A DNA stretch of 64,000 nt, taken from assembly GCA_964016885.1 (NCBI GenBank), contig OZ024745.1, positions 5,394,001-5,458,000 on the forward strand, given 5' to 3'. Source of the stretch: Eledone cirrhosa. Its lineage: Eukaryota. The notes under the pieces are model-generated. The model searched no databases and was not told the DNA's origin. It saw nothing but the letters and a program-made list of their open reading frames with translations. Positions 1,483-58,265 of the stretch are shown here, piece after piece. The first letter of the stretch is position 1. The number at the start of each line of letters is the position of its first letter. Both the position numbers and the translations under genes were made by a program.

Positions 1483-1554
1483 TGTATATATATATACATA
1501 TGTATATATATACATATGTATATATATATACATATGTATATATATATACATATG

Positions 1555-1624: not shown

Positions 1625-2110
1625 TAATTATAATGAAATGACAGGAGGCTGGACTTGTGTAAATCCTTGAAAGGTTTATTATACTATGATCATTTCAATG
1701 ACCGGGTTCCGTATGAATTCGGTGATATCATCAGGCATTCGAAATATAATAAGTGAATGTAATAGATAAAATCCATGGGGCTGAAAATCAAGGACCAGAG
1801 GGCGACCGCCATCCAGCATCTTCTACCTTTGCCGGTCGCCCTCGAGTGACGTGGCTAAAACTTACAGTGTGCTACTACAGGTCAGATAAAGGAAAACAGA
1901 AAGGGATGGGAACACAAGTTAGCGTTAATATCATGCCACAAGAAAAGAGAAAGAAAGAAAGAAAGAAGAGAGAAGGAAGAAGAAGAGAAGCCAGGGTTAA
2001 TGTCAGCTATAAGAAGAAAGACAGAAAGAAAGAGGAGGAAAGGTCGGTATTACAGTCAGGCCAGGATTGTCGTGAAGAAATTTTTTATTCTAAGGGACCC
2101 GTATCTTAAC
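1625..2110 (-). mobile_element. Probable solo 3' end (pLTR) of a Penelope-like element
   Basis: Pyrimidine-rich on the minus strand, ends with a hammerhead followed by AATAAA, then a (TA)n tract; same layout as the 3' ends of coding PLEs in this window. No coding sequence. Confidence 0.6.
1681..1738 (-). ncRNA. Type I hammerhead ribozyme
   Basis: Minus strand: AUGC-CUGAUGA-long stem II (ACCG..CGGU)-GAAA-UGAUCA-UA-GUAU; stem I AUGC/GUAU, palindromic stem III AUGAUCAU. Confidence 0.8.
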
Positions 2111-2115
2111 AACTA

Positions 2116-2513
2116 CGGCTGAGTAGCCCAATTTGCATAACGAGTGGGTTAATCGGCCGGGTGCACCGAAAACGATAAACGGAAAAAATGAAGCGAAATT
2201 TCATTTCCCACTCTTAGTACGGCTGTTACTTAAATATAAGTATGTACACGTACATACATATATGTATACACTCGATATGCAAATTGGGCTACTCGGCCGT
2301 TAATATGCATAAGGTGGGTATATACGTTCAACAATCTGGCAGGATGGTATACGTTGCTGGCGATAGCTAATAAGCTTGAGACTAGTACAGAGTTCCTTTG
2401 TCAGTGTTGAACAAACGAGCAACGATGGTTGCTAGACACTGCGGCTTGGTGCGGGATGTTTGTTTACAAACACACCGAACATTATAATAAATGTTCGGTG
2501 AATCCATACTTAC
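2116..2513 (+). mobile_element. Non-coding HHR element family A (retrozyme-like), copy with inverted 5' part
   Basis: 2116-2270 matches 23835-23987 directly; 2271-2513 matches the reverse complement of about 23625-23863; ends in a TA-rich tract. Confidence 0.8.
2352..2392 (+). ncRNA. Hammerhead ribozyme with mutated core (CUGGCGA / GAGA), probably inactive
   Basis: CGTTG-CTGGCGA-T-AGCT-AATA-AGCT-T-GAGA-CTAG-TA-CAGAG; the sister copy at 23742-23782 has the intact CTGACGA / GAAA core. Confidence 0.75.
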
Positions 2514-2569
2514 ATATATATATGTGTGCATACATATTACTGTAGGTCTCTATACATATATGTATGTAC

Positions 2570-2668
<99 letters not shown>

Positions 2669-8489: not shown

Positions 8490-8640
8490 CATCTCATTTC
8501 TACAGCTGAGTAAACTGGAGCAATGTGAAATAAAGTGTCTTGCTCAAGGAAACAACACATCACCCAGTCTGAGAATTGAACTCACAACCTTTCGATTGCA
8601 AGGCCAATGCTCTAACCACTAAGCCATGTGCCTCCATTCA
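8490..8640 (-). mobile_element. tRNA-derived CORE-type SINE fragment
   Basis: Minus strand CCTTGAGCAAGACACTTTATTTCACATTGCTCCAG; related copies at about 10015-10135, 11780-11945 and 22906-23220. Confidence 0.6.
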
Positions 8641-10247
8641 TATATGTATAGACTCACACATATACATGTTTGTGTAACTGCATGTATTTAGTTTATCTGG
8701 ATTCATTTACTAAGCTATCAAACAAGAACAAACTTTACTAAATGAAAAACAAACACTAAAAAGAAGATAATATATGAGTTTCTGATGTTAATAGATTTCA
8801 GTAGTTTTGGTAATGTTTCTAATTTTGTTAAATCAACAAATCATTGAAGTAACAGTTTATTTTCTGACTCTAGCTCTCCGACAAGACAGCATTATCTGCA
8901 TCCTTATGGGGGTCGATAAAATAAAGTACCAGTAATACACTGAGTAATTGCTGGCCTTGTGCCAAAAGTAGAAACAATTATCTGATATATAACTCTACTT
9001 TATTCCACTGAACCACCCACATGCAGTTTAATTAGCTATGGGATTAAACTGGGAATTGAAAGACAGACAATTTGAACCTGTTTATTATTTGAACAAGGTT
9101 GTGTCATATCCTTGTTAAATGATGTTTGTAAGGTTTCTGTTTCTGGAAACAGTATAAGTTTGATATGAGGAGACTTGGTTGTTTGTGGAGGATGACATCT
9201 TTCTAAGTTAAGTAGTAAAGTCAGAGACCAGGCTGTGAAATAATCTTACAATTAATTTTATGAGTAAACCTAAATATATTTATGTGGTTAGAATGTCTCA
9301 GGAATGAATCACTGGACATATTTTGTGGACATAACCAACTAGCAGAAGACCCAGGAGTAGACCCACTCTGAGCAAGATGGTTGGATAACATTCATGAGCT
9401 TGGTTGGTCTCGCTTGGTGATCTAGGAAGATCACTTGGAGATGGTTGCTTCTGACAGGACCCACTGGAAAGAATGTTGGAAGACTCCTGCCCTCATGACC
9501 CTCTCAACAAGAAAAAAAGAAAAAGAAAAAGAAAAAGAAAAAGAAAAAGAAAAAGAAAAAGATCTTTTTCTTTTCAGTTATTTTTCCCTTTGTTTTACAG
9601 TTTTTTTTTAATCCTAAGACATTTCATCACGCTCCCTGCCACAAGAGTACCACCTTCCACTATGAACTTACAGCACTTTTTTCCCTCAACTCACATGTAT
9701 GTGGTATTCAATAAGTAGGGAGAAAATATATCAGAGAGCCCCTATGTGATCATGTGGCCTGCTATATGTAGCAACCAATTATCCTTTAAATTTTACTTTT
9801 GTCTATAGTTAGCAAGAGAGCCTGTATGGGTCATGTGGCTTGCTAGAAGTAGCAACCAATTCTCTTTTAAATAACATGTTACCACTATCATACACATTAG
9901 ATTATTCACCTACAAGTGGGGGTATATCTTGTCAAATTGGACCAAGGAAGCAGTGTTCCCATTGGACTTTCCAATTGCTGATATTATCTACCAGTTACAA
10001 CTCCTGACAGAAGGAGCAATGGAAAATAAAGTATCTTGCTCAAGGACAAAATGCATTATCTGGCCCAGAATTGAAGTCACAACCTCACAATTGTGAATTC
10101 AATTCCATAACCCCTCAGCCATGCATCTTCACAACAATAGACACAATGAAACAGACAGAACAGTTAAAGGAATGAAATATACTTTGTCTGAAATACTGCA
10201 TCACATAAGATCAACTGTGAATCTCAGAATGGTCTTTGACTTGACAG

Positions 10248-11276: not shown

Positions 11277-12279
11277 GTAAGTATGGTGATAGAGCTTATC
11301 TCATTTCTTGAAATGTCTTCTGTGGAAACTGTTTTATATTTGTTTATTGGTGGTGATTGTTCAATTAATCTCCATAAATGGTTGCTTCTTCAGATGGTTC
11401 AAGAACTGGTAAACTTTAGAAAGATATAATTACCACATGGCTAATTTCTAATATTTAGGAATGGGTTTCTACAGATGTCTTCAGCTCATGTAACATTTAG
11501 TAGAGTCTAAGACAATATAGCAACTAGAACACATTCCAAAAATATATCACAGAGATGTCTACTTCGTCACTGGATTCACCAAATTGGTTTGTTTAATGGC
11601 TTAAAGAAGAATTTCAGTGATGATTTTTAAAGAAATGTAGATGATTACCAGCCATTCAAAGAATAAAGGAAAGTCTAAAGTCTGTCTCCCAGAGGTTCAT
11701 CAGGCTGGTGCTTATCCTCATTTCTGTGGTGTTAAGTGACTGAGAATACAAGACCTCCCCTGGACAGGATGCCAGTCCATAGCAGGGTTAAACCCCCAGC
11801 TATAGCTGGTACTTATTTTCAGTTGAGTGTATTGGAGCAATGTGAAATGAAATGTTTTGTTAAGGAACACAACACACAACCCAGTCCAGAAACCCATGAC
11901 ATCATGATCATAAGTCCAACATCCTTACCACTAGGTCACACACTCATTCAATGGTATGAAGGAAACAGTTTGGTATCATTGTCAGTGTTAATAACATTAT
12001 TAGTGCTATGTCATGAATTATCTTGTCAAAGAGTATTTTTATAAATGTCAACAAAATGTCATACACCTGACAACTTCTGTTGATAGAGCAACATTACAGT
12101 TTTAGAAATATTTACATAAGAAAAATATTGAATGATACTTTCTAAGTTTCCAGTGATTTAATTTCTTGGTATTCTAACCATTTTGTTTTTAGATATTTCT
12201 ACTAAACAGATTAGCTTAACTAAAGTCTAATTACTATATCTAATTTAAAATATGCATTTGTGAGTTTTATATCGAATAA

Positions 12280-14072: not shown

Positions 14073-15515
14073 TTGGTTTGAGTCATAAATAATTCCTGTA
14101 TTTTAAAAGCAAGTTGTAACTACGCATTTCAAACTTTCAATGTTTTAAATACAACCAGAAATTACCTGATTAGAGAGATTCTTCATCAGTCATTCTTATT
14201 TCATTAGTGAAAGAGTGCAAATCATAATTTAATTTATGATTTCACACCCCTAAAATGGGGGAAGTACATATTTGACACAATGTTGTGGGAGTTTAAGAAT
14301 AACAAAAACCCTACAGAAACAGCTAAGAAAATTTGTAGTTTTTATGGCCAGGGTGTCATTACTGACCACCAATTCTGAAACTGGCTTTCAAAGTTTCATT
14401 CTGGGGACACGTTATTGAGAGATGGACACAGACCAGGACACTCAACAGACTTTGATAAATATGAGAGATGGATCCAGACCAGGACACTCAACAGACTTTG
14501 ATAAATATGAGAGATGGACACAGACCAGGACACTCAACAGACTTTGATAAATATGAGAGATGGACACAGACCAGGACACTCAACAGACTTTGATAAATAT
14601 GAGAGATGGACACAGACCAGGACACTCAACAGACTTTGATAAATATGAGAGATGGACACAGACCAGGACACTCAACAGACTTTGATAAATATGAGAGATG
14701 GACACAGACCAGGACACTCAACAGACTTTGATAAATATGAGAGATGGACACAGACCAGGACACTCAACAGACTTTGATAAATATGAGAGATGGACACAGA
14801 CCAGGACACTCAACAGACTTTGATAAATATGAGAGATGGACACAGACCAGGACACTCAACAGACTTTGATAAATATGAGAGATGGACCCAGACCAGGACA
14901 CTCAACAGACTTTGATAAATATGAGAGATGGACACAGACCAGGACACTCAACAGACTTTGATAAATATGAGAGATGGACCCAGACCAGGACACTCAACAG
15001 ACTTTGATAAATATGAGAGATGGACACAGACCAGGACACTCAACAGACTTTGATAAATATGAGAGATGGACACAGACCAGGACACTCAACAGACTTTGAT
15101 AAATATGAGAGATGGACACAGACCAGGACACTCAACAGACTTTGATAAATATGAGAGATGGACCCAGACCAGGACACTCAACAAACTTTGATAAATATGA
15201 GAGATGGACCCAGACCAGGACACTCAACAGACTTTGATAAATATGCTTTAAGAGAATTGATGGAATGCAATCTGCACAAAAGTAGTTAAGAATTAGCATT
15301 TGACCTCAACATATCCCAATCCACAATCTGCCACCACTTGGAAAAAATAGGAAAAGTGAGCAAGCTGGACGTTTGGGTTTCTCATACTCTTAGTGAGAAG
15401 AATAAGGAAGATCACTTATCCATAGCAACAAGTCTTCTTTCAAGACAGAGAAATGACCCGTTTCTCAAGAATACCTTTGCAGGTGATGAAAAATGGGTCT
15501 TTTATGACAATGTTT
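14073..15515 (+). mobile_element. Mariner transposon relic interrupted by an internal satellite
   Basis: Translates GKVSKLDVWVSHTLSEKNK..PFLKNTFAGDEKWVFYDN (WVPHEL- and GDEKW-like motifs); starts TA|TTGGTTTGAGTCATAAATAA like a mariner TIR; 3' part missing. Confidence 0.85.
14417..15244. repeat. 46 bp minisatellite, 18 copies
   Basis: GAGAGATGGACACAGACCAGGACACTCAACAGACTTTGATAAATAT with exact 46 bp period from 14417 to 15199. Confidence 0.96.
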
Positions 15516-17159: not shown

Positions 17160-19362
17160 TCTCTCTCAGAACTCTTCTGTCTAAAGTCATTGACTTTGTG
17201 TCTCTCTCAGAACTCTTCTATCTAAAGTCATTGACTTTGTGTCTCTCCCAGAACTCTTCTATCTAAAGTCATTGACTTTGTGTCTCTCTCAGAACTCTTC
17301 TATCTAAAGTCATTGACTTTGTGTCTCTCTCAGAACTGTTCTATCTAAAGTCATTGACTTTGAGTCTCTCTCAGAACTCTTCTATCTAAAGTCATTGACT
17401 TTGTCTCTCTCTCAGAACTCTTCTATCTAAAGTCATTGACTTTGTGTCTCTCTCAGAACTCTTCTGTCTAAAGTCATTGACTTTGTGTCTCTCTCAGAAC
17501 TCTTGTCTAAAGTCATTGACTTTCTGTCTCTCTCAGAACTCTTCTGTCTAAAGTCATTGACTTTGTGTCTCTCTCAGAACTCTTCTGTCTAAAGTCATTG
17601 ACTTTGTGTCTCTCTCAGAACTCTTGTCTAAAGTCATTTTCTTTCTGCCTCTCTCAGAACTCTTCTGTCTAAAGTCATTGACTTTGTGTCTCTCTCAGAA
17701 CTCTTCTGTCTAAAGTCATTGACTTTCTGTCTCTCTCAGAACTCTTCTGTCTAAAGTCATTGACTCTGTGTCTCTCTCCCAGAACTCTTCTATCTAAAGT
17801 CATTGACTTTCTGTCTCTCTCAGAACTCTTCTATCTAAAGTCTTGACTTTGTCTCTCTCCCAAAACTCTTCTATCTAAAGTCATTGACTTTATGTCTCTC
17901 CCAGAACTCTTCTATCTAAAGTTATTGACTTTGTGTCTCTCTCAGAACTCTTCTATCTAAAGTCTTGACTTTGTGTCTCTCTCAGAACTCTTCTATCTAA
18001 AGTCTTGACTATGTTTTTTTGCTCAGAACTCTTCTATCTAAAGTCATTGACTTTGTCTCTCTCCCAGAACTCTTCTATCTAAAGTCATTGACTTTGAGTC
18101 TCTCTCATAACTCTTCTGTCTAAAGTCATTGACTTTGTGTCTCTCTCAGAACTCTTCTATCTAAAGTCATTGACTTTGTGTCTCTCCCAGAACTCTTCTA
18201 TCTAAAGTCATTGACTTTGTCTCTCTCCCAGAACTCTTCTATCTAAAGTCATTGACTTTGTCTCTCTCCCAGAACTCTTCTATCTAAAGTCATTGACTTT
18301 GTGTCTCTCTCAGAACTCTTCTATCTAAAGTCATTGACTTTGTGTCTCTCTCAGAACTCTTCTATCTAAAGTCTTGACTTTATGTCTCTCCCAGAACTCT
18401 TCTATCTAAAGTCATTGACTTTGTGTCTCTCTCAGAACTCTTCTATCTAAAGTCTTGACTATGTTTATTTGCTCAGAACTCTTCTATCTAAAGTCATTGA
18501 CTTTGTGTCTCTCTCAGAACTCTTCTATCTGAATTCATTGACTTTGTCTCTCTCCCAGAACTCTTCTATCTAAAGTCATTGACTTTGTGTCTCTCAGAAC
18601 TCTTCTATCTAAAGTCTTGACTTTGTCTCTCTCTCAGAACTCTTCTATCTAAAGTCATTGACTTTGTGTCTCTCTCAGAACTCTTCTGTCTAAAGTCATT
18701 GACTCTGTGTCTCTCTCAGAACTCTTCTGTCTAAAGTCATTGACTTTGTCTCTCTCCCAGAACTCTTCTATCTAAAGTCATTGACTTTATGTCTCTCCCG
18801 GAACTCTTCTATCTAAAGTCATTGACTTTGAGTCTCTCTCAGAACTCTTCTATCTAAAGTCATTGACTTTGTCTCTCTCCCAGAACTCTTCTATCTAAAG
18901 TCATTGACTTTGTGTCTCTCTCAGAACTCTTCTGTCTAAAGTCATTGACTATGTGTCTCTCTCAGAACTCTTCTATCTAAAGTCATTGACTTTATGTCTC
19001 TCCCGGAACTCTTCTATCTAAAGTCATAGACTTTGTGTCTCTCCCAGAACTCTTCTATCTAAAGTCATTGACTTTGTCTCTCTCTCAGAACTCTTTTATC
19101 TAAAGTCATTGACTTTGTGTCTCTGTCAGGACTCTTCTATCTAAAGTCATTGACTTTTAGTCTCTCTCAGAACTCTTCTGTCTAAAGTCATTGACTTTGT
19201 GTCTCTCTCAGAACTCTTCTGTCTAAAGTCATTGACTTTGTGTCTCTCTCAGAACTCTTGTCTAAAGTCATTTACTTTCTGTCTCTCTCAGAACTCTTCT
19301 GTCTAAAGTCATTGACTTTCTGTCTCTCTCAGAACTCTTCTGTCTAAAGTCATTGACTTTGT
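17160..19362. repeat. Satellite of about 41 bp, roughly 50 or more copies
   Basis: CTCTCTCAGAACTCTTCT(A/G)TCTAAAGTCATTGACTTTGTGT; internal palindrome AAAGTCA-T-TGACTTT. Confidence 0.96.
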
Positions 19363-19654
19363 TAACTTGCGAGCAAAGTTTATAGTTGAGTTTAAAAAAA
19401 AATATTTTATTAAAATTTGAAATATTGGAATCCAAACTCAGAAATAGCTATCATTATCATCGTCGCCACTGCCGTTTAACGTCCATGATGATGATGATGA
19501 TAGCTATATATAATACTAGCTTTAGTAAATTAGGTAAAATATCCCCAGCGACAGAAAAAAGGGGCCAACAGCATTTGAATTCTAACTTTTCAAATTTCAA
19601 ATCATCTAAGTGCTTTGGTTAATCATATTAATCATAAAGTTTTGTCTGAAACTA

Positions 19655-21082: not shown

Positions 21083-22023
21083 TCATAAAAGAAAAATATC
21101 TTACATTCTTTCATTAATCTATAAAAAAAAGAAGTGAAGAGTATAAAATAACATGTGTAATTTAGGATTCCAGTAGTGTTGATACTTACAATATTAGTCT
21201 GAAGTGATATAAAATTAGAGATTCTTGAGGCTGGGTATACCACAGAAATATATTATAAAAATATGAAAAAGAAATATTGACATGTCTGAATGTTTAACAC
21301 GAGACATGAGAGTAGTCTGGGTTTTTTAAACAATTAGCTTCATTTCTTCTGTTTTTATCTGTAGTTATGTTTGAATCTCTCCTATAGCTACTGATTGTCT
21401 TTAGATGTCCTGGTTGTACATACACACACACACAGGCATACACACACACACACACACACTTGTGGTGTTATTTCTTTTGCAATCATGTATTGAGTTTGTT
21501 GTTTCTCAGTTGTATATACCAAGGTGCCATTATCTTTATATATATATATATATATATAACGAAGGAAGTGTGGTAAGGAACCAGGTGGACCATAACGCAC
21601 CAGTGTTCTCAATACTTAGGGTAGTAGAGTGGGTAATAGGAAAATGTTTAACCCTGACGGCAGAGGTGAAGCCGTTTCAATGGCAATTTCAGCCCATGCA
21701 TGTAGCAGAATCATGTTTATTACCAAGAAACATGTAGTAAACATGTTTCTGCTACATGTATGGGGCCTTCACACACATAGCTAATGTTGGTATCAGGACA
21801 AAAAGTGGCAGTTCACACTGTAAATGTGGTTGACATTAGGAAGGGCATCCAGCAGTAGAAACCAAGCCAGAAACAGTTCTGTATGAGCAAGACATGGTCA
21901 TCTGATCTCACTTGTCTCAATGGGACAACTTACAGGGAAAATGGACATTAAACAGTGATGATAGTGATGATGATGATTACAGATTAACAGTAATTTAATA
22001 GTTTTCACTTTATTTCAATGTAG

Positions 22024-22113
22024 GCCCTTCAACAGAAATATGACGAAGATTACTCGAAATACCGAAACAATGAGCGGCAACTTGAGCTACAAATCAACAA
22101 CTACGAAGAAAAG
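22024..22113 (+). CDS. CEP112: Exon of CEP112-like protein (ALQQKYDEDYSKYRNNERQLELQINNYEEK)
   Basis: TAG acceptor, AAG|GTAATG donor; 90 nt, phase 0-0, heptad-like composition. Confidence 0.8.
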
Positions 22114-22139
22114 GTAATGGAAGTATATTGAAACTGTTT

Positions 22140-22330
22140 AATAATTGTTTCTACTTTTGGCACAAGGCCAGCAATTATCTCAGTGCATTACTGGTACTTT
22201 ATTTTATTGACCCCGTAAGGATGAAAGGCAAAATTAACCTCAGTAGGATTTGAACTCAGAACGTAAAGGGCCATAACTCTGTGCTACAAAGCATGGTGTC
22301 TGACGCTCTACCGATTCTGCCAATCCATTG
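22140..22330 (-). mobile_element. tRNA-derived SINE with Meta-domain-like core
   Basis: B-box-like GAGTTCAAATCC on the minus strand; homologous to 12280-12475. Confidence 0.6.
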
Positions 22331-22792
22331 CTCTTTAAACTGTTTAACAATATAAAGTATACACTCCTATCACTCTGCTTCACTTTAATCATCAAGACTG
22401 TCTTGTGGAGTAAAGGGCAACATCACTAGTGTTGCTGCTGCAATAAAATGCACCCAGTACACTCTGAAAAGTGACTGGCAAATGAAGGACAATGTAGAGT
22501 TGAGTGGGTGTTGCTGAGGCCATTACAACCTCTCTCGTGCCATAACTAAATGTATCTAGTACACAGTGTTAGGAGGCTCCAGCCACAGAAACCATGATAA
22601 AATGGAATGTACAAGTGAGATATAACTCCAATATGTCTTGAAGGACAGAAACATGGAATAAGAACTGTGTGACACACCATCTCACCTCCTCTGCCAGTAG
22701 AGGAAGTAAATATTGTTGTTACTACTGTTAAAGTTTCATAAACAAATACAACTGCAACAAACAACTTTATACAACTTTCATATTTATTTCAG

Positions 22793-22858
22793 CTTTCAGA
22801 GCTTCAACTTCATTACGAAAATAAAATCTTAGGCCTGATGCCAAAATGTGTCCACCGT
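22793..22858 (+). CDS. CEP112: Exon of CEP112-like protein (LSELQLHYENKILGLMPKCVHR)
   Basis: TTTCAG acceptor, CGT|GTAAGT donor; YENKILGLMP resembles YETKLKGLMP near the human CEP112 C-terminus (from memory). Confidence 0.8.
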
Positions 22859-22905
22859 GTAAGTTATCATTTCAGTTGTCTATGTTGTTACCAGTACCAG
22901 TGATA

Positions 22906-23220
22906 TGTGAAGGTACATGGCTTTGTGGTTAGGGTGTTTAGATCATGATTGTAAAGTTATGAGTCCTGGACTGGGTGGTGTGTTGTGTACTTGAACAAGG
23001 CACTTTATTTCATGTTGCTCCAGTCCACTCAGCTGGCAGAAATGAGCTGTACCTGTAATTCAAGGGGCTAACCATGTCAATCATTGTGTCACTGAATCAC
23101 CCTGAGAACTATGTTAAAGATGCTAGTGTCTGTGGAATGCTCAGCCACTTACATATTAATTCCACTAGCAGGCAGTTCCATTGATTGAATCAGTTGGTGC
23201 ACATCATCAGAAAGGATGAG
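22906..23220 (+). mobile_element. tRNA-derived CORE-type SINE
   Basis: A-box-like TGGCTTTGTGG, then GTGTACTTGAACAAGGCACTTTATTTCATGTTGCTCCAG. Confidence 0.6.
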
Positions 23221-23479
23221 AGTCTAACACATATATGGAAGAGAAATATTGAAAGCAAGGATAAGCAATCACTCCATGGTTGCAGGTGTGAAAGAATGCT
23301 AATTTTCTTTGCTTTAGTATACCTGTGAATTAAGGTGTGGAAACTAGAAGTGCATTTACCTGCCTAACACGGAGAATCTTTACTACATGACTGAATTAGA
23401 ATTGTATCAGTGAAATCCTTTTAAAAAGTAGTTCCAAGGAAACATTTGTGTAAGACATAAACAATATATATATAAACAT

Positions 23480-24092
23480 AAAAAATGAAACAAAATTTCA
23501 TTTCCCACTCTTAGTACGGCTGTTACTTAAATATAAGTATGTACACGTACATACATATATTTATACAGACGTACAGTAGTATGTATATATATATATACAT
23601 ACAAGCACAAATATATATATGTACGTATGGATTCACCAAACATTTATTATAATGCTCGGTGTGTTTGTAAACAAACATCCCGTATTAAGCCGTAGTGTCT
23701 AGCAACCTTCGTTGCTCGTTTGTTCAACACTGACAAAGGAACGCTGTACTAGTTTCAAGCTTATTAGCTATCGTCAGCAACGTATACTTTCCTGCCAGAT
23801 TGTTGAACGTATATACTTACCTTATGCATATTAATGGCTGAGTAGCCCAATTTGCATATCGAGTGGGTTAATCGGCCGGGTGCAACGAAAACGATAAACG
23901 GAAAAAATGAAACGAAATTTCATTTCCCACTCTTAGTACGGCTGTTACTTAAATATAAGTATGTACACGTACATACATATATGTATACAGACGTACAGTA
24001 GTATGTATATATATATATATACATACATGCACACATATATATATGTACGTATGGATTCACCGAACATTTATTATAATGATCGGTGTGTTTGT
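23480..24092 (-). mobile_element. Non-coding HHR element family A (retrozyme-like), about 1.4 copies of a unit of about 420 nt
   Basis: About 23481-23668 is directly repeated at about 23903-24092; one intact hammerhead; no ORF; TA-rich flanks. Confidence 0.82.
23742..23782 (-). ncRNA. Type I hammerhead ribozyme (intact)
   Basis: Minus strand: CGUUG-CUGACGA-U-AGCU-AAUA-AGCU-U-GAAA-CUAG-UA-CAGCG; palindromic stem III ACUAGU; stem I extended by GUUCAACA/UGUUGAAC. Confidence 0.87.
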
Positions 24093-24095
24093 ATA

Positions 24096-24168
<73 letters not shown>

Positions 24169-24177
24169 ATATATATA

Positions 24178-24867
24178 TCATCATCATCATCATCGTTTAA
24201 CGTCCATGTTCCACGCTTGCATGGGTTTGGACGGGAGTTTTCCCACTTGAGGCAAGAGTGGTTGTCTTGCTCGCATAGGACTGTCTGGCGGGTTTTCTAC
24301 AGCTGGATGCCCTTCCTAACACCAACCACATTTACAGTGTGGGACTGGGAGGTTTTTACCGTGTTACCTACACGGCCACATTACAGCGTGGACTATGTGT
24401 TTTTTTGTCGTGACACCTACACAATCTCATTTGTTTCGGCCTGGATGTTGTGGCACCAACATAACTTTTCATTGAAAGGGGCGATGTGGATGGGGTGGGG
24501 GTGGTGGGACGGGGGTGTATTTTGTTAGAGGTGCCTACTGACTGTAGTAGGTTTTACTTTGTATTTAGGTAAGGCGGGTCTTCTCTATTACTGAGTACCG
24601 CCAAAGATCTCGGTCCAGTGACATTGTCTTGGAGAGGTGTAAGTGTGTGAGGTCGGAATTTATCAGGTCGTCCCAGGTTTTTCTGGGTCTGCCTACCGTC
24701 TATCTTTATTGTCCTGCACTTTTTTATACAGCTGTCGTCTTTCATGCGCATCACGTGACCATACCAGTGTAGCCTTCTCTCGAGTAAACAACATCTGATC
24801 CCTCTTATTTCTAATTTTTCCCTTATTTCGTTTATGCATTGCCATTCACGTATATTACTATTACACG

Positions 24868-26195: not shown

Positions 26196-26268
26196 ATATA
26201 TATATATATATTTCGTTTCTGAATTTGTTTAGCAAGATTCTTTATCTGAAATCGTGTGTTGAAACCGA

Positions 26269-26497
26269 TATTGTTATACTTTGGGAGGGTCATGTTGCCA
26301 ATAAGAAACACACGCACCAGTTGCTTTCACATCAATTTATTATAATAAATTTATAAATTATTGGTTGTGGAACCAACCAACCAACCAGAAATTTATAAAT
26401 TCCTAAATTTATAAATTTATTATAATAAATTGAAGTGAAAGCAACTGGTGCGTGTGTTTCTTATTGGCAACATGACCCTCCCAAAGTATAACAATAT
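26269..26497. repeat. Fold-back copy of the 3' terminus of the PLE family at 28821-31120
   Basis: 26269-26360 matches 28821-28911 directly and 26363-26497 is the reverse complement of 28821-28954. Confidence 0.85.
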
Positions 26498-26525
26498 ATA
26501 TATATTATATATATATATATATATA

Positions 26526-28770
26526 GGGGATTTAAAATAACCCTACAAACGTCCCTGGCCCGAGTAAACTTCCTGGACGTGACCCTCGACCTCGAAAACG
26601 ACCTGTACTACCCATACAGGAAACCTAATGACAATCTGCACTACATCCACCGCCGATCAAACCATCCTAGGAACATCACAAACAACCTGGTCAAAAACAT
26701 CTCCCTCCGCATATCCCGTTTGTCAGTTAATGAGCGGATATTCGATGAACAAGCGCCTTATTACAACCAGGCCCTCAAGCGGAGTGGTTTCCGGGAGGAA
26801 ATATCCTACTGTCCAGCTCCCATTAGCGGAACCAGCAGGAGACACCGCCGCTCACGCAATGTAACATGGTTCAATCCTCCCCACAACGCAGAGGTGACAA
26901 CTCCCATTGGGAAACTATTCTTTAGGCTCATTGAAAAACACTTCCCATTACAACACCGCTACCACAACATAATTAACAAAAATACCATCAAACTCTCTTA
27001 CAGCACTACACCAAACTTTGCACAAAACATCGTCTCCTCTAACAACAAAAAACTCAACCCCGATGGCAGAAATAACCTAAATAGCAGTGGAGAACCGACC
27101 AGGAGGTGTAACTGCCCGGATAGATCTATTTGCCCACTCGACAATAGATGCAGAGACCGTAATGTGATCTACCAGTGCAACGTGAGGACGGATACCTCCA
27201 ACAAAGCCTATATAGGACTTACCGCATGTGACTTCAAGACCCGGCTATACCAACATAGACATACCTTCCGAAACCCGGCCCGGCGTCACGCCACTACACT
27301 TTCGGGCCACATATGGGACCTCAAGGACAACAACATCACCTATGATCTCACTTGGAGATTACTGTCCAGAGCCAATTCTTACACGGGAGGACGCCGTCCG
27401 TGCAATTTATGCTCGGAGGAAACTTTACAAATGCTGTTTTCGACGGACCAACTCCTAAACAAGAAAGATGAACTGGTTACTGCATGTAAACATAGATTGC
27501 GTAGGACTTACCTCGCCCTCAAACCCCATAATGACCCGGGGGGGTAGACTAGGGCTATAACACCCCACTTGCCGATTTTGCAATGGGTAACCCCTGCTTG
27601 CCAAGGGAGACGTAAGATCTTCTTTGTATTCTTTTATCGCTTCCTTTATTTCCTTCCCCCCTCTCTCCTTAGTCCTTCTACCCCAGCTCTTCTCCTTTGT
27701 CGGCGTCTTTTCTCGCCCACCTGAGGCTGCCCTTTGGCCCCTTGTAGCCTTAGTACCCCCACCCTCTCCCCTAGTCTATGATAGATTTGGCGGACTCCGC
27801 CCTTTATAGCAGTTGGTTTAGACCCCGGATACTTGTCCCCCTTTTTCCGACCGCTCCCACTATTCTCTGTGCCCTCTATATTTCTTAGTGGCACTTATGC
27901 CTTATTTTTTCGTTTCAGTATTTCTTTCTCCGCTTTTCTTTTGGGCGGGGTGGATTCTGAATTTATTTTTCCGTATTCTACCTTTACTTCGTACGAACTT
28001 TCATGTAGCTTGTTTTAGATCTTTTGGAGTTAGCATTAGTATATATTTTTCTTCGGGACTCAGAATTATTATCTCGTACAAGTTCACTTTGCTGCACTGG
28101 GTGGTTGCTGGCATTGTGCTCGGGATGGAAACCTTTATTGTTTATTTCGTGGTAGTCTCTTCAGTATTTTGGCCCCTTTTGTTGACCCGTCACCGTATCA
28201 TTTATGTACTTATACCTCTTAAAAGGGTCCTTGCCTATTCCGTCCCACCTAGTTCTTTTACTTATTTCGTTATTTCTTTATTTCTTTCTTTACTTCTTTC
28301 TTTCTTTATTTATTTATTTATTCTAGCCTAACAATAGCTAGAGACCTAGGTCGTAGAATTTAATTTACTTTACTTTTTTCTTTACACTTATTTGCTTTTC
28401 TTCACTCTCAGTATTTTTTCTTTCCTATATATTTCTACCCCCCATTGTTCTACCTACCGTTCCGACTTCCTCCCCCTCCCCCTCCCCTGTATCTTCTTTG
28501 ACCTCATGCCCAGCTGTAGCTGGCACTACCAACGCTTGATTGGGTCTACTCCACCCCCTCCCCTCTTTCTCCTACTGGCAGGTTTAGCCACCATCTCCCC
28601 TACGAATTTGCAACCACAGAATTACTACTGATTTTTGACAATCACTTTGACCATATATGGAATTACCCCTTGAGAAGATCGGCTATTTAAATACCAGGAT
28701 AAATTTTCATTTAGTCCAGAATTAGCCGTCGAAACGGCTTGAGCTCAGCTGTCGGGGTCTTACTGGTTCC

Positions 28771-28820: not shown

Positions 28821-31120
28821 TATTGTTATTCTTTGGGAGGGTCATGTTGCCAATAAGAAACACACGCACCAGTTGCTTTCACTTCAATTTATTATAATAA
28901 ATTTATAAATTAGGAATTTATAAATTTCCGGTTGGTTGGTTGGTTCCACAACCAGATGGTTGTTTATATATTGTCAAAGTTCTTTCGTCACACATTCTGT
29001 GACCTCTTCAGTGACTGGGGATTCTTTTCTTTGTTTTTGTGCCTCTCCTTTGTTCTGTCCTACGCCATCTTGTTTCTGTGTGTGTGTTGTGTGCTCAGTC
29101 TGCACATGCGCCGCATCCGGGTGTCTGTGTGTGTTTATATTTGTTTATTTATTTGTTTATTTACATGTTACCGGTTGGTTGTTTGTTCTATGTGTGTGTG
29201 TGTTTTCATTTTGTCCTTAATTGTAAGTTGTGATGTTGCTGTTCCACTCATATTTTCTATTTAATTTTGGTTGTAATTCTTTTATGTTTATTGCCTCTGT
29301 AATTTGTCTAAACATTGCGTCTTTTCTGTGTGTAGATTCTATTTTTATTTCTATGTTCTCTAATTTACCCTTATGTTCTATTTTAGCATGTTGGTAGAGT
29401 ACAGATGATTCTTTACTATCTTGAAGGTCTCGCCAGTGTTCATTTATCCGTTCCCCTACACTACGAGCTGTCTCACCTATGTACACTATATTTTTGTCTC
29501 TACATTGTCCTTCAGTACATCTTATGCTATATACTACATTTCTAGTTTTACAGTTAATATGGGGGCTTAATTTACAGGTTATACATTTCTTACCTATACA
29601 GGGGGGGGGGGTCTTTGAAAAGGGTATGTCTTGCTAATAAGTGTTTTTATGGAGGTACCTGGTCTTTCTACTATCTTAATATTGAGTTTATGTTTATCTA
29701 GGGCCCTTCTAAATTTGTAAGCTAATTCACCTCTAGGGGTTGTATCGATGAACATTACACTCTGGTATTTATTGCTATCATACCATGAGTTTATACTATT
29801 AGCCTTATTCCTAGTTCTTTCTATTCTATTCCAAAATTTGCTCCTATACAAGGGGCAGGTCCCATTTGTGTCATTATTTACCATTTTTTCCCATTTGGTT
29901 CTGGCTCCTCTATAAACTCTGATTTTATCTCTCTGATTGTAACCAGAGAACTGCATACGGTGGATGAAGTGTTGTATGTGTCTCTCTAGTTCTCCGGGGT
30001 TGCACATGCGGGACACGTTTCTCATCACCAGTACCAAATCCGCAATCAGTATGTTGATTTTGGTATGGTCCGAAACAGCCGAGTTTCGGTGGATCAGGTA
30101 TTTGGAAGACATGTGTTTGGCATAATGGGAATGGAGGATTTGTTTTTTGTTATTAATGGTATCTAACCAGAGCTCTGTGTCTAGTACAGGTAATCGATGG
30201 TTGGGGTGTTTGCTTGGGTAGTCTATAGTAACTCTAATACTCTGGTGGATGGAGTTAGCTATTTGCTGGATGCTTTCCATTGTGTTTTTCTCTAATTCCT
30301 GACTGTTCTCTAGTGGGGGTGTTTTAACTACGATGTTTATATCATCAACGTAGCGGGAGTACATTATCAGGGTTAAGGGGTCTTCTAATTGTTCTTTAAG
30401 TTTAACTCTACTGTCCCACCATACCATGAATAAGTTAGCTATGTCACCTGCAATGCTAACACCAATGGCTGCTCCCTCCTCTTGGGCATATGTTTTTCCA
30501 TTAAATTTGAACATATGTTCCTTAAGGGTTAATTTATGCTGGCCCCCACCGCATGTGCAATCATTTTCTTTAGTTCATCGTGGTTTTCGGGGGTCCGTAT
30601 GGCTCTGGTCCACCCGTTCCATCTATCTGTGTGGGGTTTCTTGGCCATTGAGGTAATGGTAGGTGGTCTGCCTCTTGCTGGTCTTGTAGGGCACAGGTTG
30701 CTAAGGTCATATGTGTCTAGATAATTATTACTATAAGTAAGTTTAAGTAGGAGTCCCAGCTCACTGGTATCAATCCCACGGAACTCAACATTGCTCTCAC
30801 TGATCATTTCTACGCATTTCTCCACAGCAAAATCCACGTCAATAGATGGATACAGGGACACAACATCCATACTACCTATTATGCAGTTTTTTAGGTCCCT
30901 AGATCGGTTACCCTCGCCGATTGTGCTGAGGAGGTCCTCCGTGCTGTCACATACATCTGGGGACATTTCAATGATGGGGCGTATGATCAGGAAGAGGAAG
31001 TAGGACTGTCTGTAGTTACTAGCAATGTTAGCTCCACAGACTGGCCGTGTTGGTGGTCCCGTGACAGGGTCACTGCCCGTTTTAAGGTCTTTTCGAAGCC
31101 CATAAAACGGTGGCACGTCA
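28821..31120 (-). mobile_element. 5'-truncated, frameshifted Penelope-like element (clade not assigned)
   Basis: ORFs 30529-31116 ([18 protein letters not shown]), 29594-30514 (GAAIG, YSRYVDD, LPVLD) and 29217-29486 (YIGETARS..ERINEH, GIY-YIG). Confidence 0.9.
28973..29015 (-). ncRNA. Minimal type I hammerhead ribozyme in PLE 3' end
   Basis: Minus strand: GUCA-CUGAAGA-G-GUCACA-GAAUG-UGUGAC-GAAA-GAAC-UU-UGAC. Confidence 0.8.
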
Positions 31121-31604: not shown

Positions 31605-33918
31605 ACTTTGAATAACTTTGAAATGTTTTGGCCAGTATTGGCCCAGGCCATGTCTAACTTAATAGCACCACCTGGCGAAGTCTTTCAATTCAGGATTTGG
31701 GCACCATGGCCCATTCGAGAAGAGAATTACTGTTTGCGGAGACATATCCGGGTGTGGGTGGTTTGTCCGGGATTACTTGGAGGAATTTGTCCAAAGACTT
31801 CTTGAATTTTGTGTGGTCAGTTTCTGTTTTGACGTGTCCTGGTGTGATGTTGAAGAGAGCAGGGCCGATTGAGGTGAAATAATTGTGCCGTATTGTTGTT
31901 ATGAGTTGCGATTTAGATTTTTGAATGGGACGGATAGCACGGGGCCCAAGCCTTGGGTGTATCTTGGAGGTGATGCCAACATCATTTGGGCAGTGATGAT
32001 GGAACATTTTCCACATCATGCAGATAATATAACGCTCACGGCGACGTTGGAGTGAGTAAAGTTTCAGGTTTTCCAATCGACCCCAGTAGTCAAGGTCTGA
32101 CATGCCATCTATCTTTTTCGTGATTGCCCTTTGAGGAGCTTCAAGTTTCATGATACTTTGTTTCGTGTGGGGAGACCACAGTGGACAACAGTATTCAAGG
32201 TGTGGTCGGGCGAAAGTAGAGAAGAGAAGGATAATGGTGCGGGAATCTCTCGACTGGAAGGTTCTGAGGATCCAGGAACACATTCTGCGGGCCATGTCAA
32301 CTTTGCTGCTTATATGCGTGGTCCAGCTTATGTTGCTGTCCACGGTTACTCCCAAGTCTCTGATGTTGTTAGATGCCACGAGAGTTTCCCCGGAGGGAAG
32401 GGAGTACGGGAGTTTCAGAGCATCCTCTTTTCCAAAGTGGATCAGTTCGAATTTGTCTTCGTTCAGTAACATGTTGTTCTTTTCTGCCCATTGGGTAACA
32501 GCCAGTAGGTCTGACTGAAGGCTTATCCGGTCATCCACGCCATTGATGACCTTTTGGAGCTTGGAATCATCAGCGAAAATTTTAATGTTGCTGTGTTTGA
32601 TGATGTCAGTGATGTCATTAATATAGATGATGAAGAGAAGTGGGCCCAACACAGTGCCTTGTGGGACTCCACTACTGACTTTGGCTGGGCTTGATTTGAC
32701 TCCCTCAACTACAACATGTTGGGTTCTGTTTGACAGGAAGCTCTTGATCCACTGCAGCAGCTTTCCAGTGACACCAATATTGGACAGCTTTCTCAGTAGA
32801 ATGTTATGATCAACCCTGTCAAAGGCCTTGCTGAAATCAAGGTAGATAACATCAGTGTTGGAACCCTCTCCCAAGGCTCTCAAAATGTCATCAAAGTGAT
32901 GCAGTAGTTGCGTCAGGCAATCCCTTCCATTACGGAATCCATGCTGGTTGGAGTTCAGCATATTGTTACTCTCAAGGAAGTGGGTCATTCGCGATCTCAC
33001 CACTCGCTCAAATACCTTAATGATATGAGAGGTGAGTGAGATTGGACGGTAATTCACGGCAAGGGATTTGTTTCCCTTTTTGAAAACTGGGACAACAGAC
33101 TGGGATAGAAGGTTTTCTGGCACATATCCAGCATCCAGTGAGTTCCGCCACAGATTGGCAAGAGGAGAAGCAAGTTGGTGTTGACACGCCTTCAAGACAC
33201 AAGCAGGGAACCTATCGGGACCTACTGCTGAATTATGCTTGATTTCCTTTATTGCCGCCAAGACATCAGGGGCGCCAAACGTTATGTCCGATAAGGTGTA
33301 ATGGGGAGTAACATCGCCGATACAGCCCAGATCGGCCATATCAGGATTGCTGAAAACAGAGCAGTATTGTTTCTGCAGTATCTCACCCATGGTTTTAGCA
33401 TTGTCTTGAAGAGTGCCATTTTCATCAATTAGAGGGCCAACAGTAGAGCCAGTGATTTTGTGTTTTTTTGCAAATGAAAAGAACACTTTGGGATTGAGTT
33501 TGATCTTCTCAATGGCCCAGGCCTCTTCAGCTCTTCTCTGATTGTTGATGAGGGACATTATGTTGTTTTGGAGGTTATGTTTTTTAATCTCTAGTGATGA
33601 AATGGCAGTCAAGTTGATGTGTTGCTGCTGACAGTATTTCAGATTGTTGATTTTTTTGTTCGTTCTCTTAATTTTTCTGATGAGCGTTCTTCTATTTCTA
33701 GGGATTCTGCTCTTAGATTTGTTTATAGTTCTTAATGGGGTGTGTTTAGCACATATGTAACAGTGTCCACAAATGTCTGCCAGGACTTTTTGATGTTAGT
33801 GGGTGTATGAGTGTGCGTGAAGGACCAGTCGACATGTGCAAGATCATGACTGATCGCTTCCCAGTTTGCATTGTGGAAATCCATAGCGTCAAACGGATGG
33901 ACAAAGTTATTCAAAGTA
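31603..33918 (-). mobile_element. 5'-truncated CR1-group LINE
   Basis: ORF 31690-33612: NYRPISLTS, YLDFSKAFD, GVPQGTVLGP, FADD, RRRERY; short-repeat tail (TTCAAAGTTA)x2. Confidence 0.92.
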
Positions 33919-37423: not shown

Positions 37424-39982
37424 TATTCTGACATCACCACAGATGAACTTCACATCATTCTCACCGCACGTAAAACCATCCTAGAGTTCAACAATGAATA
37501 TTGAACCAGAGCCGATACCTCTAACAACTTCGACATCACAATGGGAGCATCCGATTCATCCCAATTGACAGATTTAATTGGTATCTTTATTTTGAACTCT
37601 TTGAGTTGGAAAATTCCTCAACTTCGCGGTGGAATTTATCGTGATGATGGACTCTTTACTATCTTAAATTGCAACATAGTTAACCTTAATATTATTAAGA
37701 ACAATATACGTAATCTCTTTAACCAACATAACCTAAAAATTGAATTTGATAACAGCATCAAACTAGCTAATTTCTTGGATGTATCTCTTAATCTTGACAC
37801 TGGCCTATATTACCCTTACCATAAAAACAATGAGAACCTAAATTATGTTAACTTTAAATCTAACCATCCTACTAATATCAAGAATGCTATAGTTAGTAAT
37901 ATTGGAAAAAGAATATCTAACCTATCTTCTAATAAAAACATCTTTGATGCTAACGCCAATTACTATAATAACGCACTTTCTAAAGCCGGCTATCCTGATA
38001 AAATCAAATATAGTAAAGAAACAAATTCTAGAAGAAATTACAGTAGAATAATTAATCATGATCATTCCAATAACTTTAATAAAAGACCTAGATACAAAAA
38101 CATAATCTGGTATAATGCTCCTTTCTCCATCTCTATTAATAACAATATTCCTAAATTATTCTTTAGTGCCTTAAATAAATGCTTCCCTCCCTCACATATC
38201 TATAGTAAAATATTTAACAAACACACTATAAAATTTTCCTATTCGACATCCTCCAACATTTCCAACATTATCTCTAAACACAACAATAAAATACTAAATA
38301 CTAAATCTCTTCCTTCCAACACTGAATTTCATAATAATAGTAATAGTACTCCCGACGTCATTGTAAACCCTAGGCTAATTTCTGCAAACCCAAATACAAC
38401 GTCAAACACAATTTCGCTAAATGTTCTTAATCCCATTCTAAATCAAGAAACTATTATTCCTATCGCAAATAACTTCTCCAATCCAATTCATTCTATAGAT
38501 AACACTAGGTCACTCGTTAATAATCTCTCTAATGGCAATTGCAATTGCCCTGTTAAAAATAAATGTCCTCTCAACAACCATTGTCTTGATAAAAACTTAA
38601 TTTACGATTGTAAACTTATAACTGACACCAATTCCTTCACCTATTTTGGCTCCACTTCCACCTCTTTTAAAGCTCGTCTTTATAACCATCATTCGTCTTT
38701 TAAATACAAACTTAAAAGAACCAACACGGCTCTCTCAGAACTCATATGGTCCTTGAAAGACAAAAATATTAAATATAGCATCTTTTGGAAGAAGGTTTCT
38801 TTTGCGTCTCCATACTTGAACAGTTCTCTATCCAAGATTTGCAATCTCTGTCTAAATGAAAAATTTACCATTATATCTAATTTAGATTCTATAGTAAATA
38901 GACGCACTGACTTGTTTTCTATCTGCTTGCATAAATTCCACAAAACATTTCACAAAGTATACAGCTAATATCCAAATCTTTATCAATTTAGAATCTTTTT
39001 TCTCAAAGGCACATATATATATATACACTTCTTTAAAAATATACCCATCTTTCTACCTTATTTCAAAGGTCTTATTATACATTATATAATACTTGTTACT
39101 CATTCTATAACGCTCCTATTTTTCTTTTAATGTCTAACCCCTAATCTGTACCTTTTCTCACTGTTGCCTAACATAGAATCAATTATTACATAATGCAATA
39201 CATTCTTACTCTATATCACCTTGTAAAAATCCTTTTGACGTTAGATTATTCATCCTCAATTCATTATTCTTTTCTCCCTTTCATCTAACTCATTCACGCT
39301 CATCTCACAATATATCCTTACTTAAATTACCTGTTGTTCTTTTTAATAATATATATCAACATTTTCTTTCCATCGCACATATTATTAAACCCTTAAATAT
39401 CATTCTTAATACATATTAACTTTTTCTTTCCATCGCACATGTTATTAAACCCTTAAATATTATTCTTAATACATATTAACATTTTCTTTTCATCGCACAT
39501 ATTATTAAACCCCTCAATATACAAACCTTAACTTTACATTATTTTTCTCTTCGTTAATTTTCAAATTCTTTTAATTTATACATTATCTTCCAACGGTTTT
39601 CAACCTCTCTATGGAAAACAATATATCTTTCTCAGTTATAAAAGCTATCTCTCTCTCTCTATCACCCATCTCTCCTCCTATCTCATCCTTCCTCATTATA
39701 CTCATCCTTCTCCATTTTTTACTCTCATCTCCTCCTCTTTTTCATCCTTTCTAACACCCACCCCCCAAAAAAAAAATTTTTTTTTCCCCAATATCACACA
39801 TCAATCTAAAACTACTTCTCATATGTTGATTTAAAACTGCACTATCCACAAGTGTTTTTTAACCTTCATATCATGTCTTCCTGTTTTATCTGATGAAAAC
39901 AAATATTATTGCATGATGATATTTGTTTTTGAAATGCGCATAATAAAATACATGGAACTCTTTTAACCATCTTTTGTTCTTA
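37424..39982 (+). mobile_element. 5'-truncated Penelope-like element, probably Naiad clade (second family)
   Basis: FDITMGASD, GGIYRDDGL, FLDVSLNL, SNHP, IIWYNAP, CNC..CPL, NLIY..YFGST..FKARLYNH, CNLCLNEK; 3' UTR with a 60 bp tandem repeat at about 39360-39515 and a terminal hammerhead. Confidence 0.9.
39882..39950 (+). ncRNA. Type I hammerhead ribozyme in PLE 3' end
   Basis: UGUUUUAU-CUGAUGA-AAACAAAUAUUAU..AUGAUAUUUGUUUU-U-GAAA-UGCGCA-UA-AUAAAAUA; palindromic stem III AUGCGCAU. Confidence 0.87.
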
Positions 39983-42347: not shown

Positions 42348-42398
42348 TATATTATATATATATATATGTATAGATATACATATATGTATATATATACA

Positions 42399-55340: not shown

Positions 55341-55522
55341 GCATTCACTGTAAATGAGGTTGGTGTTAGGAAGGGCATCCAGCTGTAGAAATGAAGCCAA
55401 ATCAGTTCCTGTATGAGCAAGGCATGGTCAGCCGACCAGACACTGCCCACAACAGGACAACCCGTCTAAGCCATGCTAGCGTGGAAGAACGGACGCAAAA
55501 CGGTGATCATGATGATGATGAT
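55341..55522 (+). mobile_element. RTE-A 3' UTR stub
   Basis: Reverse complement of about 2903-3082; (TGA)n tail. Confidence 0.85.
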
Positions 55523-58238: not shown

Positions 58239-58265
58239 CCTCATTACACAATGCTTCAAGTGAAC

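What the first reader, a model, noticed from the sequence alone, without database searches (positions are those of the whole stretch)
23480..24092. Family A: 1.4-mer of a highly structured ~420 nt unit with one intact hammerhead
Seen: about 190 nt terminal direct repeat, no ORF; HHR stem I is extended by GUUCAACA..CUGGCA.GGA / UCC..UGUCAG.UGUUGAAC; further hairpins AGCAAC/GUUGCU and CACCGA..UGGUG. A more-than-unit-length insert is what reverse transcription around a circular RNA would leave (inference).
Basis: partly seen in the sequence, partly recalled or inferred. Interest (0 to 1): 0.75.

Follow-up and report, generated by a model that had tools for sequence, protein, structure and literature searches.

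The report
Animal hammerhead retrozyme copy, Penelope-style insertion
This is one scattered copy of a very abundant, non-coding 422-base repeat that carries a self-cutting RNA motif, a kind of element already known in animals; its ends look like the work of a Penelope-type retrotransposon, and a second copy nearby looks copied from an edited RNA, but nothing here shows that the RNA was a circle.

Summary
The core is complete, but helix III is a 1-2 bp palindromic stub and helix II opens with U.U, so it should cut poorly alone. The family is high-copy (9636 contigs laid in one run). Its ends are not freely permuted: 3' ends join (TA)n at two internal sites (23894, 23953), 218 and 277 nt past the cleavage site; 5' ends vary and are often inverted. 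That is the published Penelope-like (PLE) pattern, for which uncleaved tandem RNA suffices, so the 1.4-mer does not prove a circle. A second copy (2117-2588) is inverted, covers the unit once with two ~30-nt overlaps, abuts a PLE-like tail, and has 9 private A-to-G changes and no U-to-C on the ribozyme strand, as from an ADAR-edited template. Verdict: works like an animal non-LTR retrozyme, probably PLE-mobilised; new member of a known kind; circularity, cleavage and expression untested.

The parts
23472..24093 (-). Copy A1: 1.47 units of the 422-nt family A element; 3' end at 23472 (23480 on a stricter reading), 5' end at 24093, both in TA-rich DNA; no target duplication resolvable
   Evidence: 23472 corresponds to the end hotspot 23894
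23894..24093 (-). 5'-truncated upstream partial unit (pseudo-LTR in PLE terms)
23472..23669 (-). 3' repeat, 95% like the upstream partial unit
23747..23777 (-). Type I hammerhead core: C3-A9 at 23777-23771, helix II 23769-23758 (4 bp) under a U.U pair, G12-A15.1 at 23756-23753, self-complementary hexamer 23753-23748, cut predicted between 23747 and 23746
   Evidence: pair probabilities; variants
23722..23808 (-).
   Evidence: extension pairs mostly P 0.83-1.0; the two pairs next to the core 0.40 and 0.53
23701..23716 (-). 6-bp hairpin 3' of the ribozyme
   Evidence: helix list
24058..24085 (-). Hairpin with an AAUAAA-bearing loop (second copy about 23634-23661)
23965..24052 (-). Long TA/CA-rich hairpin (25 + 11 bp); source of the sub-threshold miRNA-family matches
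23946..23961 (-). 6-bp hairpin whose loop holds 3'-end hotspot H2 (23953; 42 contigs joined to TA repeats)
23892..23901 (-). 3'-end hotspot H1 (23894; 60 contigs joined to TA repeats)
2269..2588 (+). Copy A2, segment Y: ribozyme-sense 23865 to about 23538 (equivalent to 23960), ending in a TA array; 9 private A-to-G changes, two in the hammerhead core (A6, A14)
2117..2270 (-). Copy A2, segment X: inverted piece equal to 23836-23989 (98%); overlaps Y by about 30 nt of unit sequence at each end
1625..2114 (-). Pyrimidine-rich segment with a decayed hammerhead-like motif at 1734 that ends in a TA array; joined to X in the same orientation with no TA between; PLE tail by resemblance only
   Evidence: no Rfam match, does not fold as a hammerhead
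24094..24866 (-). TA array and 3' part of a LINE (RTE-like, label recalled) beside A1; neighbour, not part of the unit

Best explanation
A1 is a dispersed, one-ribozyme offspring copy of a high-copy, non-coding 422-nt hammerhead element that works like an animal non-LTR retrozyme and is most likely moved by a Penelope-like element (PLE) protein. Steps: (1) source loci of more than one unit are transcribed on the ribozyme strand [inferred]; (2) the hammerhead, weak alone, cuts as a dimer through its palindromic helix III and may give monomers and circles [from known families; not shown]; (3) a PLE reverse transcriptase/GIY-YIG nuclease nicks (TA)n DNA and starts cDNA inside the RNA at one of two AU-rich sites 218 and 277 nt past the cleavage site [end positions shown; enzyme inferred]; (4) synthesis runs back through the uncut or re-joined cleavage site and stops at random, giving a full unit plus a truncated one (A1) or, when both DNA ends are extended, an inverted pair (A2) [structures shown]; (5) some templates are A-to-I edited first [inferred from A2]. 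Whether the template is an uncut tandem transcript or a circle is open; A1 fits both.
For: Type I core, 422-nt non-coding unit, strong fold that leaves the ribozyme formed. High copy number: 9636 contigs laid in X1, 73429 reads in X21; also 4 contigs in X5 and 38 in X6, two other organism labels. Of the 6 X1 loose-end rows shown, the two largest are TA-joined ends at 23894 (60) and 23953 (42); none of the 22 rows shown lies at the cleavage site. Contigs with 10-17 other letters run through both hotspots (records 4-8), so head-to-tail read-through is not special to A1. 10 of 15 joint rows shown are opposite-strand joints at 10 different places. Among 40 variant rows shown none hits the 12 core positions, N7 and loop II vary, and pair 2.3-1.3 occurs as U-G, G-U and A-U. 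PLE-type frames and other hammerhead-like motifs followed by (TA)n (5 of 6 with a good helix II within 250 nt, against 19% of background positions) lie in the same window. Published PLE pattern: partial tandems, inverted truncated copy, (TA)n targets (PMC8557442, passages); two internal start sites, both strands extended, uncleaved RNA used (PMC11167929). A2: 9 A-to-G, 0 U-to-C (p 0.004), 9 of 11 private changes in 196 nt (p 7e-6 to 2e-3); best 200-column windows of 12 other repeat alignments hold 0-4 of one transition.
Against: No homology between the unit and any of 4 PLE tails in the window beyond shuffles (19-292 of 300 shuffles as good), so no partner is identified. LINEs here also end in TA arrays, so the target is not PLE-specific. 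No array with two ribozymes was seen: both window copies hold one. The inverted joints come only from a reduced-representation PCR library (1-5 read starts each), where chimeras are possible; none is listed for the three contig sets. 432 loose-end rows, 7 joint rows and 1 variant row were not shown, and 23996-24093 was skipped. The two hotspots are 59 nt apart, not the 30-40 nt of published tails, and show 3-5 nt of TA microhomology, whereas the tested PLE started without homology. Absence of core variants is not significant alone (about 1 in 4 by chance, my estimate). The ADAR neighbour preference is not distinguishable from background (1 of 9 with G upstream, P 0.52), and several changed sites are unpaired in the monomer fold.
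Confidence: 0.7

Rival explanations
1. One reading: the template is a covalently closed 422-nt circle made by ribozyme cleavage and ligation, and the reverse transcriptase runs round it more than once. (Compatible with PLE mobilisation; this is the circular sub-case, scored as the chance that circles are the main template.)
For: Both window copies cross the cleavage site, which a cut linear monomer cannot template. The unit folds well as a circle with the ribozyme formed. In A2, X and Y together cover the unit once with overlaps of about 30 nt at both ends, as if two enzymes met on one closed template (post hoc, chance about 3% by my estimate). A1's repeats share the minority letters at 23927 and 23966 and differ by about 4.5%, near twice the 1.8% private change of the unique part. 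Related animal elements do make abundant circles (PMC7229834).
Against: 3' ends are clustered, not permuted. Uncut tandem RNA explains the same structures (PMC11167929). X and Y differ at 3 of about 62 overlapping positions, one of them an A-to-G site present only in Y: weakly against one template. No change private to A1 is shared by its two repeats in the 102 nt that could be checked.
Confidence: 0.35
2. The element is a SINE-like passenger of a LINE (RTE- or CR1-like) and A2 is ordinary twin priming.
For: Both copies sit in TA arrays at the 3' end of the same LINE family; twin priming gives 5' inversions with short overlaps (established knowledge of L1, recalled).
Against: No shared 3' tail with these LINEs in the self-comparison; the LINE is in the same orientation at A1 and the opposite at A2; fixed internal 3' ends and partial tandems are PLE marks.
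Confidence: 0.15
3. A satellite-like DNA repeat spread by recombination or local duplication, with a relic ribozyme and no RNA step.
For: The window is full of tandem arrays; Li et al. discuss satellite-type growth of such units and found cleavage in only 1 of 9 tested (bioRxiv 2026.07.22.740005).
Against: Recurrent TA-joined ends, variable 5' ends, inversions and a strand-specific A-to-G cluster point to reverse transcription.
Confidence: 0.1
4. An endogenised infectious viroid-like RNA.
For: Size, compact fold and a ribozyme; near-identical words under several organism labels (three laid).
Against: Ribozyme on one strand only; branched, not rod-like, fold; very high genomic copy number.
Confidence: 0.04

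Closest known systems
Animal non-LTR retrozymes (Cervera and de la Pena 2020, PMC7229834; mussel 350-390 bp, axolotl 330/350 bp)
   Same: Non-coding unit within the 150-450 bp range, low GC, one type I hammerhead per unit, compact fold with the ribozyme free; helix III as described for HHR_Amex1 (one pair under a palindromic tetraloop) and U.U at the base of helix II as in HHR_Amex2.
   Different: This locus has one ribozyme and 1.47 units, not an array; cleavage and circles untested; insertion ends, inversions and an A-to-G cluster are visible here and were not described in the parts of that paper that I read.
Penelope-like elements and their non-autonomous derivatives (PMC8557442, incl. MRC1; Poseidon of Anolis, PMC11167929; Li, Clavereau and Pollet, bioRxiv 2026.07.22.740005)
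   Same: Full unit preceded by a truncated copy, inverted 5' piece, (TA)n targets, 3' ends at two internal sites downstream of the hammerhead.
   Different: No ORF; canonical-size hammerhead with extended helix I instead of the minimal PLE type; hotspots 59 nt apart; no sequence link to any PLE tail in the window.
Plant LTR retrozymes and hammerhead viroids
   Same: Hammerhead, compact fold, terminal direct repeat at first sight.
   Different: Type I not type III; the terminal repeats do not hold the ribozyme; one polarity only; no 4-bp target duplication seen.

Membership tests
Animal non-LTR retrozyme | Type I hammerhead with conserved core | tested here: met
   U.U at 10.1-11.1 has a published precedent; Rfam score under gathering
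Animal non-LTR retrozyme | Non-coding unit of about 150-450 bp, GC under 50% | tested here: met
   422-424 nt; GC 0.37 for 22001-24000; no credible ORF
Animal non-LTR retrozyme | Stable self-paired circular fold with the ribozyme free to form | tested here: met
   z -6.62, helix II P 0.90-0.99
Animal non-LTR retrozyme | Many genomic copies | tested here: met
   9636 contigs laid in X1
Animal non-LTR retrozyme ('active' by Li et al.) | Two or more consecutive units each with a ribozyme, at this locus | tested here: not met
   one ribozyme in A1, one broken in A2; so the locus is filed as a solo offspring copy, not an active retrozyme
Animal non-LTR retrozyme | Tandem arrays elsewhere in the genome | tested here: inconclusive
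   read-through of the junction is common, but no piece spans a unit; no genome held
Animal non-LTR retrozyme | Self-cleavage (as dimer) and circular RNA in tissues | not testable with these tools
   needs bench work or RNA reads
Non-autonomous PLE | Partial tandem forming a pseudo-LTR | tested here: met
Non-autonomous PLE | Inverted 5'-truncated piece | tested here: met
   A2; 10 of 15 joint rows in X21, possible PCR chimeras
Non-autonomous PLE | 3' ends at two internal sites, AT-rich target | tested here: met
   23894 and 23953 joined to TA repeats; spacing 59 nt, longer than published tails
Non-autonomous PLE | Sequence shared with the terminal repeat of an autonomous PLE | tested here: inconclusive
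   no link to 4 tails in the window or to the 1625-2114 segment; the rest of the genome could not be searched
Autonomous PLE | RT plus GIY-YIG ORF | tested here: not met
   the unit closes on itself
Hammerhead viroid / viroid-like RNA | Ribozymes in both polarities | tested here: not met
Plant LTR retrozyme | Type III hammerhead inside both terminal repeats | tested here: not met
   type I, outside the repeats

The most novel reading that the evidence does not exclude
Family A is a circular RNA parasite whose genomic copies record how animal retrozymes move: a PLE enzyme pair starts at two fixed AU-rich sites on a closed 422-nt RNA and copies it from both ends of a cut (TA)n target; block 1625-2580 is one insertion in which the enzyme jumped from a PLE transcript onto the retrozyme; and ADAR-edited RNAs with a dead ribozyme are written back into the germline. 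That would give direct genomic evidence for the PLE partner and the circular template, both only hypotheses in the papers read, and a mark (identical edits in both repeats) that tests circularity from assemblies alone.
Probability: 0.22. Interest if true: 0.72.

Novelty: new member of a known kind. Interest (0 to 1): 0.45.

Why it matters
Animal hammerhead repeats are known, but which enzyme moves them and whether the circle is the template remain open (PMC7229834 discussion; bioRxiv 2026.07.22.740005). This family is dispersed, abundant and leaves readable junctions, so both questions can be tested on one assembly. The A-to-G cluster, if ADAR-made, is a rare record of an edited RNA fixed in DNA and gives the polarity of the template. 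As a single locus, A1 is an ordinary dead-end copy.

Tried and rejected
No whole genome is held, so copy ends could not be listed genome-wide. Pattern scans for the ribozyme core: 0 hits in metagenome and viral contigs. Earlier findings: nothing by sequence or place. The miRNA-family matches are TA-hairpin noise far under gathering. A 12-nt motif shared with the PLE tail at 28824-29000 looked like a partner signal but 19-70 of 300 shuffles score as well: rejected. An octamer-like 8-mer at 23850-23857 is at chance level for the window (4 found, 3.9 expected); the snRNA-type promoter precedent is recalled and did not turn up. Two of the 11 A/G differences between A1 and A2 (23835, 23788) are A1's own changes and were dropped before the count of 9. 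ADAR neighbour test: null. The motif at 1734 failed Rfam, the fold test and my strict descriptor. The host was not identified: one search gave only distant animal relatives (42% or less); an octopus-like repeat landscape is my recollection, not a result. A second ribozyme on the plus strand: none.

Full report
1. Observation. The stretch is real. 23472-23669 and 23894-24093 are direct repeats, 95% alike, period 422, so the insert is 1.45-1.47 units. There is no credible ORF. All quoted helices and the hammerhead lie on the minus strand. The unit folds far better than shuffles as a line (z -6.94), as a circle (z -6.62) and without its long TA hairpin (z -5.02 against -2.63 for the plus strand). 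Rfam gives no hammerhead at gathering score; on the 211-nt core the best of two matches is Hammerhead_HH9 over the whole model, E 0.022, 18.9 bits against 52.

2. The ribozyme. Type I: C3-A9 at 23777-23771, a 4-bp helix II under a U.U pair, G12-A15.1 at 23756-23753, cut predicted after 23747. Helix III is one or two pairs with a palindromic loop; 23753-23748 is self-complementary (seen in the sequence). Such ribozymes cut poorly alone and well as dimers (PMC4209133, passages; PMC7229834, parts 2-4 of 6), and the U.U pair has a precedent in HHR_Amex2. In the read data none of 40 variant rows shown touches the 12 core positions, N7 and loop II vary, and pair 2.3-1.3 takes U-G, G-U and A-U forms; this fits selection but is not significant alone. 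With one ribozyme, A1 cannot release a monomer: it is a product, not a source.

3. The family. No genome is held. The run search found 20 holder rows in 16 studies; I laid 4 runs on one unit, 23670-24093. X1 gave 9636 contigs, X21 73429 reads, and X5 and X6 (two other organism labels) 4 and 38 contigs. 23996-24093 was skipped as repeat. The two largest X1 loose-end rows shown are joins to TA repeats at 23894 (60 contigs) and 23953 (42). On the ribozyme strand these are 3' ends, 277 and 218 nt past the cleavage site; 23894 matches A1's end at 23472 and 23953 lies in a hairpin loop 7 nt from A2's end. None of the 22 loose-end rows shown is at the cleavage site (432 not shown). Divergent contigs run through both hotspots, so head-to-tail junctions are common. 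Ten of 15 joint rows shown are opposite-strand joints at ten places; their short sides mostly match the distance to the AATT sites at 23849 and 23916 where reads end, which makes them head-to-head like A2 (my inference). They come from a PCR-based library only, so chimeras are possible.

4. Second copy. A2 (2117-2588) is an inverted piece X (23836-23989) joined head to head to a sense piece Y (23865 round to about 23960). X and Y cover the unit once with about 30 nt overlap at each end. Y differs from A1 by 11 A/G changes; two are A1's own and were dropped. The other 9, two in the core, are absent from the variant rows shown; there is no U-to-C (p 0.004), and they make 9 of 11 private changes in 196 nt (p 7e-6 to 2e-3 by the background assumed; 9 of 15 over all of Y, p 3e-4 to 0.045). 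In 12 other repeat alignments the best 200-column window holds 0-4 of one transition. ADAR editing of the template is the simplest cause (clusters in repeat duplexes: PMC5625713, passages), but the neighbour test is null and this is one copy. X runs without TA into a pyrimidine-rich segment (1625-2114) that has a decayed hammerhead-like motif and ends in a TA array. It may be a PLE tail inserted in the same event or an earlier insertion; it failed three ribozyme tests, so I hold this at even odds at best.

5. Mechanism. The pattern matches PLEs: 5' truncation, a full copy preceded by a truncated one, an inverted piece, (TA)n targets (PMC8557442, passages); cDNA started inside the RNA at two sites, both DNA strands extended, and uncleaved RNA as main substrate (PMC11167929, parts 1-2 of 4). 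PLE-type frames occur at least five times in the window, and other hammerhead-like motifs end shortly before TA arrays. No sequence ties family A to any of them. Shown: structure of the copies, end positions, copy number. Inferred: transcription, dimer cleavage, PLE enzyme, editing. Not shown: a circle. Both copies cross the cleavage site, so the template was uncut or re-joined; A1 cannot tell which. A2's symmetric overlaps favour a closed template; the three differences between X and Y in the overlaps weigh slightly against one template.

6. Comparison. It works like an animal non-LTR retrozyme and meets the structural criteria, but this locus fails the two-ribozyme criterion of Li et al. (bioRxiv 2026.07.22.740005, parts 1-3 of 5), who class such copies as solo offspring and argue that retrozymes are non-autonomous PLE sequences. 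The more-than-unit-from-a-circle idea is already proposed in PMC4209133 and PMC7229834. It is not a plant LTR retrozyme or a viroid by the tests listed.

7. Novelty. Searches for a description in cephalopods (PMC13282606 passages with 0 occurrences of ribozyme or retrozyme) and for ADAR-marked retrocopies or PLE template-switch chimeras listed nothing that describes this; these cover open-access text only, I saw most hits as listings, and supplements were not read (those of PMC7229834 and the closed ones of the bioRxiv preprint may list related families). PMC5680766 was seen as passages only. The host is an animal; octopus is my recollection of the repeat landscape, not a result. Two earlier notes of this scan on other genomes reached a similar PLE link; they are unchecked and not used as support.

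8. Verdict. Observation confirmed; interpretation partly supported; new member of a known kind; interest 0.45, raised above routine by the readable insertion ends and the A-to-G cluster, which make the open questions of partner and template testable.

Noticed in passing
window 26268-26497 and 28824-29070 (-): PLE terminal sequence in an inverted arrangement, both junctions at the same 3' end and in TA arrays; a minimal hammerhead with an extra purine before helix II at 29011 (-), 153 nt from the end.
   Followed up: partly
window 26492-27547 +, 37505-38968 +, 54468-55427 -, 48735-50571 +, 56987-58048 -, 29594-30574 -: At least five truncated PLE-type frames; two have no Pfam match at E 0.01 but atlas and homologue hits carry PF26215 and GIY-YIG.
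   Followed up: partly
window 56600 -, 51506 +, 25082 -, 39890 +, 5535 -: Further hammerhead-like motifs; the first four lie 91-149 nt before a TA array. 25082 and 1734 both have a C.C mismatch in a long helix II.
   Followed up: partly
runs X5 and X21, loose ends at 23719, 23787 and 23959: An abundant sister subfamily that keeps the ribozyme core but has other sequence on both sides and a 4-nt insertion at 23958.
   Followed up: no
window 23850-23857 (-), also 2131-2138 and 2277-2284: Octamer-like 8-mer about 105 nt upstream of the cleavage site; chance level for the window.
   Followed up: partly
window 8490-8643, 10013-10123, 11820-11931, 22903-23049: tRNA-derived SINE-like family; the copy at 8565-8628 (-) scores as tRNA just over Rfam gathering.
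   Followed up: no
window 1-1484, 14416-15245, 17160-19370, 58261-64000: Tandem arrays with periods of about 98, 92, 41 and a long G-rich, A-poor array at the window's end.
   Followed up: no
window 40297-42351 -, 31690-33795 -, 43274-45340 +: Long LINE reverse-transcriptase frames (684-701 aa) with several near-identical partial copies, nested in TA arrays.
   Followed up: no
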